DNA of 64,000 bases from Mytilus edulis (lineage: Eukaryota), in assembly GCF_963676685.1 (NCBI RefSeq), contig NC_092351.1, forward strand, positions 89,652,001 through 89,716,000, given 5' to 3'. The stretch's first letter is position 1. Every line of letters starts with the position of its first letter. Positions 15,301 through 39,300 of this stretch are shown one piece after another. The position numbers are program-made.

Positions 15301-18300
15301 AAGTAAGTTCGTGTTTAGGGTGACTGGATAATTAAATGAGAAAATAATATTATTACGCAATTCGTCATATATTTTACAATGCAATAACAAATGAGCTGTA
15401 GACTCGATTAGACCACAAGAGCACTTTGAAAAATCTACTAGATTTTCGTTTGAACAAATGTTCATTTAAAGAACTACTATTAATCTGTAACCTAGCATGT
15501 AATACTTGACCCATTCTTGTACAAGTGTAGTAAAAATTAGGGCAATTATTATTTGGGGTTTTTATACGACCTTTAAAAATACTGAATGGCGTAGAATTTC
15601 TTGTTTGATCTGGTGACTTATTCCACAATTTATTAGACGAAGGAAGGAAATAATCGGAGTATACATTAGTTCGTGTATGTATTTCCGAAGTATTTTGAGT
15701 CTGACGAGAGAAATGATTTATGTAAATTAACTATTTGATTTGGTACCAAGTTTTGTAAATAATCTGGAGTTTTCTTATTTACCATTTTATAACAAATAGT
15801 GATATTTTGTTTTCCCCTTCTTTCTGAAAGTGTTTCCCAACCCATTTCCTCATAAAGCATCTGTATAGAAGTTAATATATTCCTACCCGTTACAATTCTC
15901 ATAGCTTCAGTTTGAACATTTTCCACCTTATTAACCAAGTATTGTGTTTGGTTATCCCAAATGACTTTCCAGTACTTTAATTCTGGTCGAATATATGAAA
16001 AATACATTTTTTCTCAAGTGAATTTATCGAGTACACTTTGATTTGTAAAGTTATATACCTGTATAGTAAATCAGCCATATTTTTTGTGTTTATAGGATTC
16101 AATGTACAATACAATGGACAGCAATATTGTAATACAATAACAACAAATTTTTGTTTGCATAAATTAAGGGTGACAGCATGAAGCGTGCGAGGAAATTTTG
16201 TTGAATTGAGTATTTGACGTTCTTATTTTTATATGTTTTTCTTCTTCAAATAACATTACATTTTTCCGTATCATTTCATTTTGTTCATGAATGTTTTTCT
16301 ATTTATTGTAGGAATTTAAAGTAAGTATACATTTTTATTTGCCTTTCTTTAGATTTTCGTTGTATAATTATATCTGAGTTCATCGACTTGTAACTGAGTT
16401 TGAAAACCCATTGTTTTCACATAATGTTTTGAACCATAATTTTCAGACTCGGAAAGGATTACAGTGTTCCTCAATAATACTGTTCATGTTATAATCATAA
16501 ATAAATCGATACATGTACTACTGAAAAACATTGTGATCACGTAGATTTATCCTTGTTCTATTATGAGATACAAATTGAGTTCACGTTAGGTTCCGCTCCG
16601 CTGATTTTGGCCGAAATTATGCACTTATGAATTTTCGTGAAAATAACATGTATAAACACTTTGTTCCTGAACGCATTTAAATATTTTGAGTTGAAATCTT
16701 TTTAGAAATCACTGGAATTAAACCTCGACAAATCCAAGTTACAACAGTTATAAAGACCTTTTCGTGAAAACCTTCTAATAATGAGCCCGCAACCGTTTTT
16801 GAAAACGGGACCATAATTAAGTGTCTGACACCACATCTTGGTTTTGTTTTTGTTTCATTTTGCTCTTTGTCATCAACATTTTGATGAGTTACAAGACAGG
16901 AGTACCAAGTGGAACTGGAGTACCTATCTTAGAAACCGTAATCAATCCATGCAGTGTTGACGTGTGAAGGATAGTTTATTTTATCATGTGATGGTTATTT
17001 CTACAAAGATATTTACTGCATTTTGACATTGTTTGATTTCATTGCTTTGTCTTATAATTGTTCTTTTATTTAACCAACGATTGCCAATGCCGTCACAAGT
17101 TGTTTTTGATAACAACATTGCCTATTGCACAATGTTTCCATCCTCATAACCATAGGTGTCGAAACACATTACAATATTGCCAGAATTCCCCTTTAGATTA
17201 CAACCAACAGTTGACAAGAACCAAAGATGGATTTAACCAGATTATTATTTTTTCAAAAACAAATAACGCTTTGTTCGTTTCAATACCGAATGCTTGACCA
17301 GGTGTTATTTTCTCATATTAACTTTTAAGAATGAACCTTGTACAGTGTATGTCATAAACATTTTGCAAGGAACAATCAGAAACTATAGAACACATACTGT
17401 TGGTTGTTTGTCATATTCATGATATTGTAGTAGAAATCACTGTTTGAATTTATGAAGCAACACATATTGATATTCCAATAAATATTGATATTGTAATTTT
17501 TGGCCTATATGAAAACTTTTATCTATACCAGTCATTTCACTGGCAAAGTACATATCAAAGATGCAACAGATCCTGCTCCCCATGTGGCACCTGACATGTT
17601 GCTTATGTGATAACAAATCCGGCCAATAGTCTAATTCGGTAGGTCACATTCATGAAAGGGAAGGGGATTGTAGTTACGACGAAAGGAACATATCCGATAT
17701 CATTTGTGAAACGTTTTTCCATATCGGTCAACCAACTCGTGATGGCGTCCGTAAAATTTACGAAGGGATCATTTCAATTTCACCATTTGGAACTCTTGGT
17801 TTAAACGAGGCGTCATTTGTTCATATTATGTCAAAGAAAATGAGAGCAAAAAGGCTCTTCCAATCACTGAGAATAGTTTTATTGCCGACGTTGCACTGGC
17901 ATATATTAATTTGATGACATTATCGTAAATTTCTCTAAATAAACATTCGATATATGCATTGCATCCTTTGTCATAACCGCGTGAACTACTGAATTAAGAA
18001 GGGTATTTTGCTAATTTGCATAACGGCCATTTTGTGCTATCATAACGGCAGCCATTACATTATCATTATATATGCCTCTAAATTAAAAATGCCAATATGC
18101 CAATTTGTATCAACAATTTGTCTGGGTACAGATTTTTAGGGTTCCGTTCGTGTTCAAAAGATCATTGACTACAGCAACTTTGAAAACTTTCAGCCTTTTA
18201 AGTTTTAAAAATCGGAAGCGTAACCAACTGATAATTGCTATATAAAATAGCTAAAAATCGTCGAAACGCAAGGTTCAGAACAGAAATCAAGATACAAAAA

Positions 18301-36300: not shown

Positions 36301-39300
36301 AATATATCCGCTATTATCTGCGAAACGGATATTCTGTAACAGTCAAACAACTCGTGATAGCATCCGTAAAATTTACGAAGATATGATTTCAACTTCACCA
36401 ATTGAATCTCTTGGTGTATTAGCTTCCCTGTTTTTAGCAACCCTATATCAAGGATAGGAAGTACAAGCCATGGAGTATCGTATCAACTGGGAGTTATATA
36501 CTCCGAAAGCAGTATCCGTTGGAATGTTACTGCATAATTTTTTTTTTATCTCAATTGGAAAACTGAAATCATATTTCATTTAAAGCAAGGTAATAATAAA
36601 AAGTTGAAACACTTGTATCTTAAAGTACACCAGATAATGATTATGATGGATGGCTGTTTAATGCCGAGCAGCAAATTAAATGCATATTCAAAAGAAGAAC
36701 ATGCAAATGTGATATAAATAATAACCCTGATTTGTACTTGACCCACACGTTTAGCGTGTTTTTTAACATGTTAGATCACAATGCAGCAGTCAGCACGAGG
36801 ACATGTCACCCATCAGTACACATGACTGTGACTTAGAGTCAATAAATATTTGCTTTTACTTTTTTATACTAATTTTGAAGTATGTTGGTTGGCCGGGCCC
36901 CACTCGGTATATGCAATTTCTGAGAAATGACAAAACCCCAGTAAAGTTATAATCTTCAAAAAGGATTGAGACACTTTGTAAATCCCGCACCATTCTGTTG
37001 ACTGTTAAATATCTCAGAATTATAAAATGAATATGATTCCTGAGCAATCATATGTATACTAAATAATTAGTGACAAATAATATAGCAAACACTATCCACG
37101 CCAACCACTAAATTGCAGGCTCCTTCTCTGATACAAGCGCATGAAAATATGGCTTAGTTAAACATACTGTGATTGACCTTGTTCAGTGGAGCATTCGGGC
37201 AAGATGAGATTATACTGTAAAACTAGTTTGTAAAGGATCAACAAGCTAGATAGGATCGAATCACATATCCCAAAAACCCTTAAAGACAAATAGTTGAGGC
37301 TTTAAGATCTCATAAAATTTATCGTTTATTGAACTAAAAATAAAACAAACAGACAAACGTATAAAATTGAATTTAAGGATGTACTTAGGTGAGGTTTTGG
37401 AAACAGTGTCAAATGTTCGGAATCGTTGGTGTTTTTCCATATGTACAAGGTAAAATATTTTGCCCCATGACACCTTTTTATCTCTTAACATAAGACTTAA
37501 AAGTTCATAAGAGGTCATTTGACAAAATTTAAGCAAATTCTTGATTTCTTTCTTTTGATTTAAAACCCAATTATAGTAATGACACAAACAATTATGGGGT
37601 ATTCATCCATGACACAAAATAAGTATATGCAAGGCAAAACAAAATATGTTAACAAAATAGTTTCTACGTATAGGTGTAAATATACAGTTACGTAGAATTT
37701 ATTATAGTATTTAAGGTATCAGAAGACAGGTGAAGAAATGTTGGTCTTGTAGAACACATATTGAATGATAATTATGAAACATACAAAAACGTATGAATTA
37801 TTTGTAAATTGAGGGCAGATATTGTCTGTTTTTTTCATATTTGAATTGCTTGGTTTTGTGTATCCAAAATTCCGATGGCCAGTACGGTCTGTTGTATAAA
37901 TAACGGAATATTGATCCCGTGTCCATAATATGTTTGGATGTTAAAACTTTTACGTGGAAAGGAATGAGGACCAAACGTAGGTATGTCTGTCTTCTTCAAG
38001 TTTTGAACACAAAACCCGAATCAAACACTCCAACCTCACTACACTTTTAGGACGTCCCTAGCACCAACTTCGGCGGAATTCTTTGTAAAGATAATTTGAA
38101 AAGACTTGTAAGATGTTACACCACCGGTCCGGTTAAAAGAAAAACATCAAAAGAAAAGGTTATTTTGTTTTCCTTTGTTATGTTTTTGTGTTTGTTTTTA
38201 TTAAAGCTGTTTTGTTTGTTTGCCTTGGGTTGGGATCAACGCCAACCTTGTTGTTCTGTTAATGGTTTTATTTATTGGTGTGTTTATTGTTATTCCTGTT
38301 GTGTAAGATCAGTTACTTCTTTATTCCAATCACTAATAACAAATATTAAACAACAGAAATGTGAAAATAAAATACTACTGAATATTACAATACTTACTAC
38401 GAGAACAATATCAATTAACAGAATTGACCACCATATAATTTTACACAAAACTTTCGTTGATATTTTACTGAAAATCGAAATATAATTACACACTTATATT
38501 TTCTGGAATATTTCAGAATAACTTTAAAAAAAAGATGTAGAGATAGCACAAAAAAGTACGTAAATTGTATTCCAATCATCAAAATCCAAACAACAAATGC
38601 ATAAATGTTCCCCAAAAATTGATATGTTGTTGATACATTTCACGTTTTGATTGTGTAAGACAACAATAGTGACACCGACTTTATCAAAACTCCTGTACTT
38701 GTTCTCTTTGGTTATGAGCGTTCTTGATGAAGGTAAATCCAAGAAAGGGGTTTCAGACGCATCAGATTGATATCTTATTGTTTTCTTTTTCATATATCTT
38801 GACGTTCGATATTTGTATTTTCTATAAGAATATAATGTCTGTGGAACGTTAAACATCATTTATCTCAACATAAAGAAACTGATTTTCATTTGTTCCCTGA
38901 TGAAGCAAAAATGTCTTTCTCGTCTGTAGATAGAATAATTGTTTTACATTTAATTCCGAATACAGATACCAACGCAATTTGAAACATGTGTTTAAAACCA
39001 ATCTGAAATTTGTAATTCTTAGATAAGTACCACTTTTTGAATAATTACTTAAGGTATTCTTGTAAAAAGGTTGTGTACATTAATTATGTTAGTGCTAAAA
39101 GTTTCAGGTTTGTAAACTTGTTGACAGCTTTTTAACGTTACATTGCTTGATTGTGCGCTAGTATATATACATTTCATAGTTTGAAGAGACCCATGTGATA
39201 CCGTCGAATTTAATGCTGAATGGAATAACCCTGACTGAAACGACAATGTATTGGTATCACATGGATATATAAAACACCTATTGCTATGTTTCATTTTAAT

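What the first reader, a model, noticed from the sequence alone, without database searches (positions are those of the whole stretch)
16150..38071. Headless duplicate 3' cassette: candidate alternative C-terminus for one gene
Cassette B repeats the 9-nt exon, the CxxC exon and the terminal exon downstream of cassette A. There is no B-box exon or first-CxxC exon between them (13.4-16.2 kb is only repeats and a LINE remnant). Its three intact exons splice in frame (xNLN-DCETCG-FVQLHEMIGEL*) and keep Cys, Cys, His and IGEL. It could only be expressed by splicing from the upstream gene, which would give swappable domain halves through alternative last exons.
Basis: partly seen in the sequence, partly recalled or inferred. 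Interest (0 to 1): 0.75.

Follow-up and report, generated by a model that had tools for sequence, protein, structure and literature searches.

The report
Headless copy of mussel gene tail
A mussel (Mytilus) B-box gene has a tail built from tiny exons, and this stretch is a second, partly decayed copy of that tail with no front half, more likely a leftover of duplication than a working alternative ending.

Summary
Window 16180-38071 (B) is a collinear tandem copy of 2352-14221 (A): about 8.2 kb aligned at 82% identity. B keeps a 9-nt exon, an 18-nt CxxC exon and a 37-nt terminal exon, all with AG/GT sites and all in phase 2. A family profile finds one B-box/coiled-coil exon in the window, at 52047-52820, which belongs to a downstream gene C. 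Neither A nor B has a head here.

The gene is a Mytilus RING-less B-box/coiled-coil ("TRIM-like") paralogue. Five relatives (P0052, P0054, P0072, P0114, P0117) show that the tail is a small C4 zinc-ribbon-like domain. Its first knuckle lies in an upstream 54-nt exon and its second in this cassette. The "domain halves" idea is therefore sound.

B shows decay. Two 12-nt microexons that are intact in A have lost a usable acceptor or donor in B. B has no AATAAA or ATTAAA within 600 nt of its stop. Its introns hold a young BEL/Pao element.

No transcript data were on hand, so expression is untested. My estimates: relic about 0.5, working alternative 3' end about 0.3. A haplotype mis-join is unlikely, because divergence is 8-40% against about 1.7% heterozygosity.

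The parts
16180..38071 (+). Cassette B: headless tandem copy of the 3' microexon cassette. The left end is approximate; the first blast block starts at 16212.
   Evidence: collinear with A 2352-14221 and with fragment A1 259-1516, at 64-90% identity per block.
16312..16320 (+). B 9-nt microexon (peptide NL), intact AG and GTAAGT
19445..26067 (-). BEL/Pao LTR retrotransposon inserted in B's first intron
   Evidence: 521-bp LTRs with 2 mismatches, TG..CA ends, 5-bp target duplication GTTGC. Peptidase_A17 1.5e-44, Integrase_H2C2, DUF1759.
28095..28104 (+). B relic of the first 12-nt microexon. The only AG leaves 10 nt, which is out of frame, and the pyrimidine tract is weakened.
   Evidence: the A counterpart 6435-6446 is intact
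30141..30152 (+). B relic of the second 12-nt microexon (would read GQY); donor GT changed to GA
   Evidence: the A counterpart 8874-8885 is intact
30851..30868 (+). B 18-nt microexon (DCETC): second CxxC knuckle, intact sites
   Evidence: The same hexapeptide DCETCG is in P0054.
33255..33291 (+). B terminal coding exon (FVQLHEMIGEL, stop TAA)
   Evidence: the first AATAAA or ATTAAA is 602 nt after the stop.
2352..14221 (+). Cassette A, the apparently live copy; its head lies outside the window
2548..2556 (+). A 9-nt microexon (VF)
6435..6446 (+). A 12-nt microexon (IGR), inferred
   Evidence: The 17-residue spacer in P0052, P0054 and P0117 equals 18+9+12+12 nt.
8874..8885 (+). A 12-nt microexon (GKY), inferred
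   Evidence: Compare GNY just before DCETCG in P0054.
9472..9489 (+). A 18-nt microexon (DCKKC)
12277..12313 (+). A terminal coding exon (KREIHFLIGEL, stop TAA)
   Evidence: AATAAA at +117 and +293.
259..1516 (+). Fragment A1: another partial copy. Its relic 9-nt exon at 266-274 would read NL, as B's does, but the acceptor is dead (tta).
14220..16222 (.). Junction between A and B: 17-bp microsatellite 14220-14855, then a retroelement-like remnant with minus-strand ORFs at 15112-16222
   Evidence: Pfam was silent; the Atlas gave a weak lead.
52047..52813 (+). Gene C exon 1: two B-boxes and a coiled coil. This is the only head exon in the window.
   Evidence: zf-B_box 1.1e-13; 95% identity to a Mytilus edulis protein..
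53927..53974 (+). Gene C exon 2 (ETVKKEENPEPQESV)
55397..55450 (+). Gene C exon 3: first CxxC knuckle (..YRYRCLRC)
56019..56036 (+). Gene C 18-nt microexon (TNTTS). It corresponds to the ..TEITSE* endings of annotated relatives.
60606..60614 (+). Gene C 9-nt microexon (YT). The rest of C's cassette lies beyond the window.

Best explanation
B is a real, old, partial tandem paralogue: the 3' microexon cassette of a Mytilus RING-less B-box/coiled-coil gene that has no 5' exons.

The cassette encodes the second CxxC knuckle and the final beta-strand of a small C-terminal zinc-ribbon-like domain. The first knuckle sits in an upstream 54-nt exon.

B arose in a tandem gene array in one of two ways. 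Either the 3' part alone was duplicated, or a whole copy was duplicated and later lost its head. The A/B joint is a microsatellite plus a retroelement-like remnant.

B is now decaying slowly. Three of its five microexons are still intact and two have lost usable splice sites. The poly(A) hexamers that A keeps are gone, and retroelements and other repeats have doubled its length.

At most, B contributes rare read-through isoforms. It is probably not a regular alternative C-terminus.

Shown: the duplication, the lack of a head in the window, the state of each exon, and the domain logic. Inferred: the two 12-nt exons, the origin, and the lack of regular use.
For: Duplication and its limits:
- 8214 aligned columns at 82.4% identity.
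- B carries extra stretches of 913, 6882, 1035 and 4095 nt.

No head:
- one B-box/coiled-coil exon in the window, at 52 kb.

Decay:
- the first 12-nt relic has only a 10-nt frame, and the second has its donor GT changed to GA. Both A counterparts keep AG and GTAAGT.
- A has AATAAA at +117 and +293 after its stop. In B the first hexamer is at +602, and both sites homologous to A's are lost (alignment).

Precedent in the same locus:
- Fragment A1 (259-1516) is a further partial copy with a dead acceptor.

Position:
- B lies behind A's complete terminal exon. Using B would mean skipping 5 good exons and a poly(A) site across 14-30 kb. This step is an inference from what is known of co-transcriptional splicing.

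Selection:
- exon divergence between A and B does not differ from the 60-nt flanks (one-sided p = 0.23, 0.76 and 0.92 for the 9-nt, 18-nt and terminal exons). There is no sign of selection specific to B's exons.
Against: - Three exons keep every AG and GT, their length, their frame, both Cys codons and the stop, although local divergence is 8-40%. My rough estimate is that all of this survives under neutrality about 3% of the time. This is my own arithmetic and no tool computed it.
- All 3 substitutions in the 18-nt exon fall in the two variable codons.
- B's knuckle DCETCG is identical to that of P0054, and CETC recurs in P0117. B's terminal peptide shares LHE..GE with the distant paralogue P0052, more than A's does.
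- Losing the 12-nt exons keeps the frame. It only shortens the loop between Cys2 and Cys3 from 19 to 11 residues, which a zinc ribbon might tolerate.
- The BEL/Pao insertion is intronic and need not disable anything.
Confidence: 0.5

Rival explanations
1. B is a working alternative 3' cassette. Some transcripts of the upstream gene run past A's poly(A) site, and an upstream phase-2 donor splices to B's 9-nt exon. The same B-box/coiled-coil body then gets a different second half of the zinc ribbon, with a shorter loop.
For: - All exons of the gene are in phase 2, so every join is in frame.
- B's three exons are intact. Its acceptor at 16312 is as good as A's: the tract is identical but for one base.
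- B's peptides stay close to those of expressed or annotated relatives.
- The family's annotated tails are very varied, and several records are named isoforms.
- In Drosophila lola, 17 of 20 alternative last exons encode zinc fingers (PMC10551640, passages read), so such systems exist.
Against: - There is no transcript evidence of any kind here.
- 2 of 5 microexons are broken.
- No AATAAA or ATTAAA lies within 600 nt of B's stop.
- A's full terminal exon and poly(A) signals lie in between.
- Only two cassettes are seen, not an array, and A's head is out of view.
- No exon-specific constraint was detected.
Confidence: 0.3
2. B is the tail of a complete paralogue in other haplotypes. In this haplotype its head has been deleted, as a presence/absence polymorphism, so B is functional elsewhere in the population and a fresh relic here.
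For: - Mussel genomes carry very large hemizygous stretches: 36.78% of the reference assembly is at low coverage (PMC7653742, passage read).
- The family forms tandem arrays. Many relatives share one chromosome-sized contig, and gene C follows on the same strand.
- The retroelement-like remnant lies exactly at B's left edge.
Against: - The two broken 12-nt exons and the lost poly(A) hexamers suggest more than a recent loss.
- A's 3' flank is repeated at B's 3' flank, which fits either origin.
- It cannot be tested with one haplotype.
Confidence: 0.1
3. A and B are the two alleles of one locus, wrongly assembled in tandem.
For: Mytilus assemblies are prone to retained haplotype copies (PMC7653742, passages read).
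Against: - A and B differ by 8-40% per block and by many large indels. Mean heterozygosity is 1.73 +/- 0.24% (PMC7653742).
- Their exons encode different peptides.
- The copy has sharp inner limits rather than running to a contig end.
- There is no N in the window.
- A third partial copy, A1, and internal 2.4-kb repeats show that real duplication is common here.
Confidence: 0.03
4. The microexons are not exons at all: they are chance AG...GTAAGT pairs in duplicated non-coding DNA.
For: - No transcript evidence exists here, and the exons are 9-37 nt long.
- The dead copy A1 keeps the same donor flank, so conservation of the flanks is no proof of use.
Against: - 8 such sites were found against 0.94 expected.
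- The exon sizes 18+9+12+12 nt add up to the 17-residue spacer of P0052, P0054 and P0117.
- DCETCG and GNY/GKY match P0054, which has no source name and sits on a 1362-nt contig.
- P0049, P0052 and P0057 are NCBI models that contain peptides of the size of these microexons.
Confidence: 0.05

Closest known systems
Alternative last exon systems with zinc-finger cassettes (Drosophila lola; mod(mdg4) is recalled, not checked)
   Same: A common N-terminal body could be joined to one of several downstream cassettes, each with its own stop and each encoding zinc-binding residues. For lola, 17 of 20 last exons encode zinc fingers (PMC10551640, passages).
   Different: Only two cassettes are seen, and one is partly broken. 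Each cassette is five microexons rather than one exon, and it would supply half a domain rather than whole fingers. No transcripts were seen, and the shared 5' exons are outside the window.
Schistosoma micro-exon genes (MEGs)
   Same: A run of very short symmetric exons separated by long introns, so that skipping any of them keeps the frame. MEG exons are 3-81 bp and symmetric (bioRxiv 10.1101/2023.06.21.545858; only the abstract in the listing was seen).
   Different: Only the tail is built this way. The body is one 767-nt exon encoding an intracellular-type B-box/coiled-coil protein, not a small secreted protein. There is no sequence relation. Variation by skipping is not shown here.
TRIM/RBCC proteins (TRIM5alpha B-box/coiled-coil, KAP1/TRIM28)
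   Same: The parent gene has two B-boxes and a long coiled coil (Pfam). The model of P0054 matches the TRIM5alpha B-box/coiled-coil, 5w9a, with target TM 0.67, and also KAP1.
   Different: There is no RING in exon 1 or in 70 of the 71 relatives listed; only P0014 carries PF13920. There is no SPRY, NHL or other usual C-terminal domain. The tail is a roughly 45-residue zinc-ribbon-like module.
Unprocessed partial-duplicate pseudogenes in tandem gene arrays
   Same: It lacks a promoter and 5' exons, lies next to its parent on the same strand, has some broken splice sites, and has been invaded by repeats.
   Different: Three of five exons are still perfect, and their peptides stay close to those of working relatives.

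Membership tests
TRIM / RBCC (parent gene family) | N-terminal RING finger | tested here: not met
   exon 1 of gene C matches only zf-B_box and ANCHR-like_BBOX; among 71 relatives, only P0014 carries a RING-type family (PF13920), and it is at the C-terminus.
TRIM / RBCC (parent gene family) | One or two B-boxes followed by a coiled coil | tested here: met
   zf-B_box 1.1e-13, two stretches; helix 96-200 in the P0054 model. Foldseek hits to the TRIM5alpha and KAP1 B-box/coiled-coil.
Zinc ribbon (C4, two knuckles) | Two CxxC knuckles about 15-20 residues apart | tested here: met
   P0052, P0054 and P0117 have a 17-residue spacer; P0072 and P0114 have about 20. In the window the first knuckle is seen only in gene C exon 3, and the second in A and B.
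Zinc ribbon (C4, two knuckles) | Small beta-sheet fold | tested here: inconclusive
   strands 294-298, 317-320 and 327-335 in P0054, with pLDDT 63-84 in the tail. I could not measure the Cys-Cys distances.
Zinc ribbon (C4, two knuckles) | Match to a curated zinc-ribbon family | tested here: not met
   best matches are Zn_ribbon_8 at E 1.4 (P0117) and Zn_ribbon_CSL at E 2.2 (P0052), both far below cut-off.
Zinc ribbon (C4, two knuckles) | Zinc binding | not testable with these tools
   Needs purified protein.
Alternative last exon cassette | Two or more cassettes on one strand behind shared exons, in a compatible phase, each with a stop | tested here: met
   A and B are both on the + strand, every exon is in phase 2, and each ends in TAA.
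Alternative last exon cassette | Each cassette has its own poly(A) signal | tested here: inconclusive
   A has AATAAA at +117 and +293. B's first canonical hexamer is at +602. The background rate is 3.4 per kb.
Alternative last exon cassette | Transcripts that join the shared exons to each cassette | not testable with these tools
   No transcript or eukaryote genome collection was available. The upstream exons are outside the window.
Partial-duplicate pseudogene | No promoter or 5' exons of its own | tested here: met
   no B-box/coiled-coil exon in 1-51 kb; no second copy of the exon-2 or first-knuckle peptides.
Partial-duplicate pseudogene | Disabling lesions | tested here: inconclusive
   2 of 5 microexons have lost a usable splice site and 3 of 5 are intact. 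The losses keep the frame if those exons are skipped.
Micro-exon gene architecture | Run of symmetric exons of 36 nt or less | tested here: met
   exons of 18, 9, 12, 12 and 18 nt, all entered and left in phase 2, then a 37-nt terminal coding part.
Micro-exon gene architecture | Small secreted product | not tested
   No signal-peptide tool was used. The body is a B-box/coiled-coil protein, which argues against it.

The most novel reading that the evidence does not exclude
Mytilus B-box/coiled-coil genes encode their C-terminal zinc ribbon as a string of phase-2 microexons. Tandem-duplicated headless cassettes such as B would then serve as swappable second halves of that split domain. This would be a lola-like or MEG-like way of diversifying the binding end of an expanded, possibly immune-related, gene family, and gene annotation has largely missed it.
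Probability: 0.2. Interest if true: 0.7.

Novelty: new member of a known kind. Interest (0 to 1): 0.35.

Why it matters
If B is a relic, it is an ordinary by-product of tandem-array turnover.

The context has practical value whichever reading is right. At least 34 of the 71 database relatives of the neighbouring gene end exactly where an unspliced phase-2 donor reads as a stop. Only 2 of the 71 carry the second knuckle. The family's real C-terminus, a zinc-ribbon-like module built from exons of 54, 18, 9, 12, 12, 18 and 37 nt, is therefore probably missed in most annotations.

If B is used, mussels would have a cassette system that changes half of a small zinc domain on a constant B-box/coiled-coil body. 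That could be tested directly with long-read cDNA.

Tried and rejected
- **Tail searches.** I searched the tails of P0052 (residues 262-324) and P0054 (277-336) against the 5.8-billion-protein set. Each found only itself, from 1 and 2 candidates. The index needs several shared 5-residue words, so this is no evidence that such tails are rare.
- **Lenient tblastn.** Eleven family proteins against the window at E up to 50 gave mostly noise. A weak match at 42185-42304 (E 0.13-0.29) was not confirmed by the family profile, so I dropped it.
- **Exon-versus-flank divergence, A against B.** Not significant (p = 0.23-0.92). Ungapped stretches next to indels inflate the flank counts. The test was significant only for older pairs: the two 12-nt exons within A at p = 0.0002, and the 9-nt exon of B against C at p = 0.04 and of A against C at p = 0.02.
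- **Pfam on junction and nearby ORFs.** No credible hit.
- **RNA searches.** Rfam and tRNA scans of the whole window found nothing.
- **Literature.** Searches for Mytilus + microexon (2 papers), micro-exon + bivalve (1 paper) and Mytilus + B-box + TRIM + expansion (6 papers held the terms, 5 were listed) turned up nothing on this family's tail or on microexons in mussels. In PMC4203926 and PMC5549309 I read only the passages that hold the search terms.
- **Joined spliced models.** I did not search or fold the joined models of A, B or C. Only gene C's exon 1 was searched on its own, and the microexons are too short to search singly.
- **Closed or unsuitable resources.** The metagenome and viral contig collections and the papers' supplements were closed. 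The one open contig collection holds bacteria and archaea only, so I did not use it.

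
Full report
**What the window is.**
The window is 64 kb with no N and about 31% G+C. The one long cellular ORF, 52023-52814 on the + strand, has two B-boxes (Pfam zf-B_box 1.1e-13). Searched on its own, as exon 1 of a gene I call C (52047-52811), it found 71 proteins at E <= 1e-5 among 399 candidates. Every hit that a source names is from Mytilus, and the best is 95% identical (M. edulis, "TRIM9-like"). The window is therefore mussel DNA and nothing in it looks human. The family is RING-less. A model of relative P0054 matches TRIM5alpha and KAP1 B-box/coiled-coil structures.

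**The gene's tail is a string of microexons.**
In gene C, exon 1 (52047-52813) ends GG|gtaaat. It is followed by:
- exon 2, 53927-53974 (ETVKKEENPEPQESV);
- exon 3, 55397-55450 (..YRYRCLRC, the first CxxC knuckle);
- an 18-nt exon, 56019-56036;
- a 9-nt exon, 60606-60614.

The window then ends. Every exon after the first begins with 1 nt and ends with 2 nt of a split codon, so all introns are phase 2.

Five relatives carry a longer tail: P0052, P0054 and P0117, and with a longer spacer P0072 and P0114. The tail reads first knuckle, 17 residues, second knuckle (DCETCG in P0054), then about 10-11 residues and the stop. Seventeen residues is exactly 18+9+12+12 nt.

The AlphaFold model of P0054, built with a 44-row alignment, gives the tail three strands at pLDDT 63-84. 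No Pfam zinc-ribbon family matches significantly. I read the tail as a small C4 zinc-ribbon-like module split over seven exons.

Of the 71 relatives:
- 11 end at the exon-1 donor;
- 4 end in exon-2 read-through;
- 11 end at the first-knuckle donor;
- 8 end at the 18-nt exon's donor, where GG|GTAA, AA|GTAA and GA|GTAA read as a residue plus a stop;
- 2 have both knuckles;
- 35 end otherwise.

Most annotated tails thus look cut short at unspliced donors.

**The observation.**
Cassette A has these exons:
- 9-nt exon 2548-2556 (VF);
- two 12-nt exons, 6435-6446 (IGR) and 8874-8885 (GKY);
- 18-nt exon 9472-9489 (DCKKC);
- terminal coding exon 12277-12313 (KREIHFLIGEL*).

The two 12-nt exons are my inference. 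It rests on the pattern scan, the 17-residue arithmetic, and the likeness of GKY to GNY, which precedes DCETCG in P0054.

Cassette B has a 9-nt exon 16312-16320 (NL), an 18-nt exon 30851-30868 (DCETC) and a terminal exon 33255-33291 (FVQLHEMIGEL*).

A and B are collinear from about 2352/16180 to 14221/38071. There are 15 chained blocks with 8214 columns at 82.4% identity, ranging from 64% to 90% per block, plus the block around the 18-nt exon. Local alignments give 81.8% around the 9-nt exon, 92.1% around the 18-nt exon and 60.3% around the terminal exon.

B is longer because of inserts of 913, 6882, 1035 and 4095 nt. The 6882-nt gap holds a BEL/Pao LTR retrotransposon at 19445-26067. Its LTRs are 521 bp with 2 mismatches, and it has a 5-bp target duplication. 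It is much younger than the duplication.

A family profile finds a B-box/coiled-coil exon only at 52047-52820. The exon-2 and first-knuckle peptides occur only in gene C. B is headless, and so is A within the window. By analogy with C, A's head should lie about 6 kb beyond the left edge.

**Signs of decay in B.**
- The counterpart of A's first 12-nt exon (28095-28104) has its only AG placed so that 10 nt remain, which is out of frame.
- The counterpart of the second (30141-30152, which would read GQY) has GA in place of the donor GT.
- A has AATAAA 117 and 293 nt after its stop. In B both homologous sites are changed, and the first AATAAA or ATTAAA is at +602. The background is 3.4 per kb.
- A further partial copy, A1 (259-1516), has a relic 9-nt exon that would read NL, like B's, but with a dead acceptor. 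It is the closest relative of B's first 2 kb at 83-89%.

The locus is therefore a mosaic of nested partial duplications. Inside each cassette, 2.4-kb intron units that each carry one 12-nt exon are themselves repeated.

**Signs of preservation in B.**
- All AG and GT sites, the lengths, both Cys codons and the stop of the three exons survive.
- The 3 substitutions in the 18-nt exon all fall in the two variable codons.
- B's knuckle equals that of P0054. Its terminal peptide shares LHE..GE with P0052, a paralogue only 58% identical to gene C's exon 1.
- Skipping the two dead exons keeps the frame and gives Cys-x2-Cys-x11-Cys-x2-Cys, against x19 in the full form.
- My rough arithmetic puts the chance of all this surviving neutrally at about 3%. 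That is not a tool result.
- Against this, a direct test found no difference between exon and flank divergence for A against B (p = 0.23, 0.76, 0.92).

**Verdict.**
Two parts of the interpretation are sound: the cassette encodes half of a split domain, and the phases would let it be swapped. The claim that B is used as an alternative ending is untested and, on balance, less likely than not.

B sits behind a complete terminal exon that has poly(A) signals. It has lost two exons and its own proximal signals, and the same locus holds another plainly dead fragment. My estimates are:
- relic: 0.5;
- working alternative 3' cassette: 0.3;
- tail of a paralogue whose head is missing only in this haplotype: 0.1;
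- not exons at all: 0.05;
- haplotype mis-join: 0.03.

A mis-join fits poorly. A and B differ by 8-40% and by large indels, against a mean heterozygosity of 1.73% in M. galloprovincialis (PMC7653742, passages).

**Comparison with known systems.**
If used, B would work like the alternative last exons of Drosophila lola, where 17 of 20 last exons encode zinc fingers (PMC10551640, passages). The run of short symmetric exons resembles schistosome micro-exon genes (bioRxiv 10.1101/2023.06.21.545858, abstract in the listing). It is a member of neither family. I found nothing in print on microexons in mussels or on this family's tail.

**What stayed unchecked.**
- The joined spliced models of A, B and C were not searched or folded. 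Only exon 1 of C was searched, and the microexons are too short to search singly.
- No transcript data or eukaryote genome collection was on hand.
- Tail-only searches with P0052 and P0054 found only themselves, which reflects the word index and not rarity.

Noticed in passing
window 19445-26067 (minus strand): A near-intact BEL/Pao LTR retrotransposon. Its LTRs are 521 bp with 2 mismatches and TG..CA ends, and it has a 5-bp target duplication GTTGC. It has two long ORFs, 22839-25580 (gag/protease-like) and 20179-22914 (Peptidase_A17, RT, integrase). The insertion is recent.
   Followed up: partly
window 52047-60614 and database relatives P0001-P0071: At least 34 of the 71 relatives of gene C end exactly where an unspliced phase-2 donor (GG|GTAA, AA|GTAA, GA|GTAA) reads as a stop. 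Only 2 of 71 carry the second CxxC knuckle. The family's microexon-encoded tail seems to be missed by most annotations.
   Followed up: partly
window 9591-11034 and 30997-31087: A 113-bp satellite with 12.8 copies at 95% match lies in A's last intron. B has a single unit at the same place, so the array grew after the copies split or was lost in B.
   Followed up: no
window 44371-50117: A 37-bp satellite with about 155 copies at 87% match lies between cassette B and gene C. G+C and GC skew shift across it.
   Followed up: no
window 14220-14855: A 17-bp microsatellite (38 copies) starts exactly where the homology between A's and B's 3' flanks ends. It may mark the duplication joint.
   Followed up: no
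window 6435-6446 vs 8874-8885; 2548-2556, 16312-16320, 60606-60614: Among the older copies, microexon contents differ more than their 60-nt flanks: 9 of 12 against 24 of 116 (p = 0.0002) for the two 12-nt exons in A, and p = 0.02-0.04 for the 9-nt exon of C against A or B. The AG and GTAAGT sites stay fixed. This may reflect diversifying selection or simply free loop residues.
   Followed up: partly
window 32.2-33.2, 34.5, 35.7, 61.1, 62.6, 63.7 kb (both strands): A short dispersed repeat reads ..NCHIPDLVQAF.. in one frame. A similar peptide forms the odd tail of the NCBI model P0057, which is 97% identical to gene C. This suggests an exonised repeat or a mis-annotation.
   Followed up: no
window 12277-12313 vs 52770-52805: A's terminal peptide (..EIHFLIGEL) resembles the end of exon 1 (..EIEKLFGEL) at 6 of 9 places. 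This may be chance or a trace of how the tail arose.
   Followed up: no
window 34331-36635: A 1.2-kb tandem duplication (34331-35509 and 35504-36635, 88% identity) lies downstream of B's stop and is absent from A.
   Followed up: no
window about 50991-51315 (minus strand): ORFs with a ..SPDINPIGHGWD.. stretch recall the C-terminal motif of Tc1/mariner transposases. The motif is recalled from memory, and Pfam gave no hit. It is a probable transposon remnant just upstream of gene C.
   Followed up: partly
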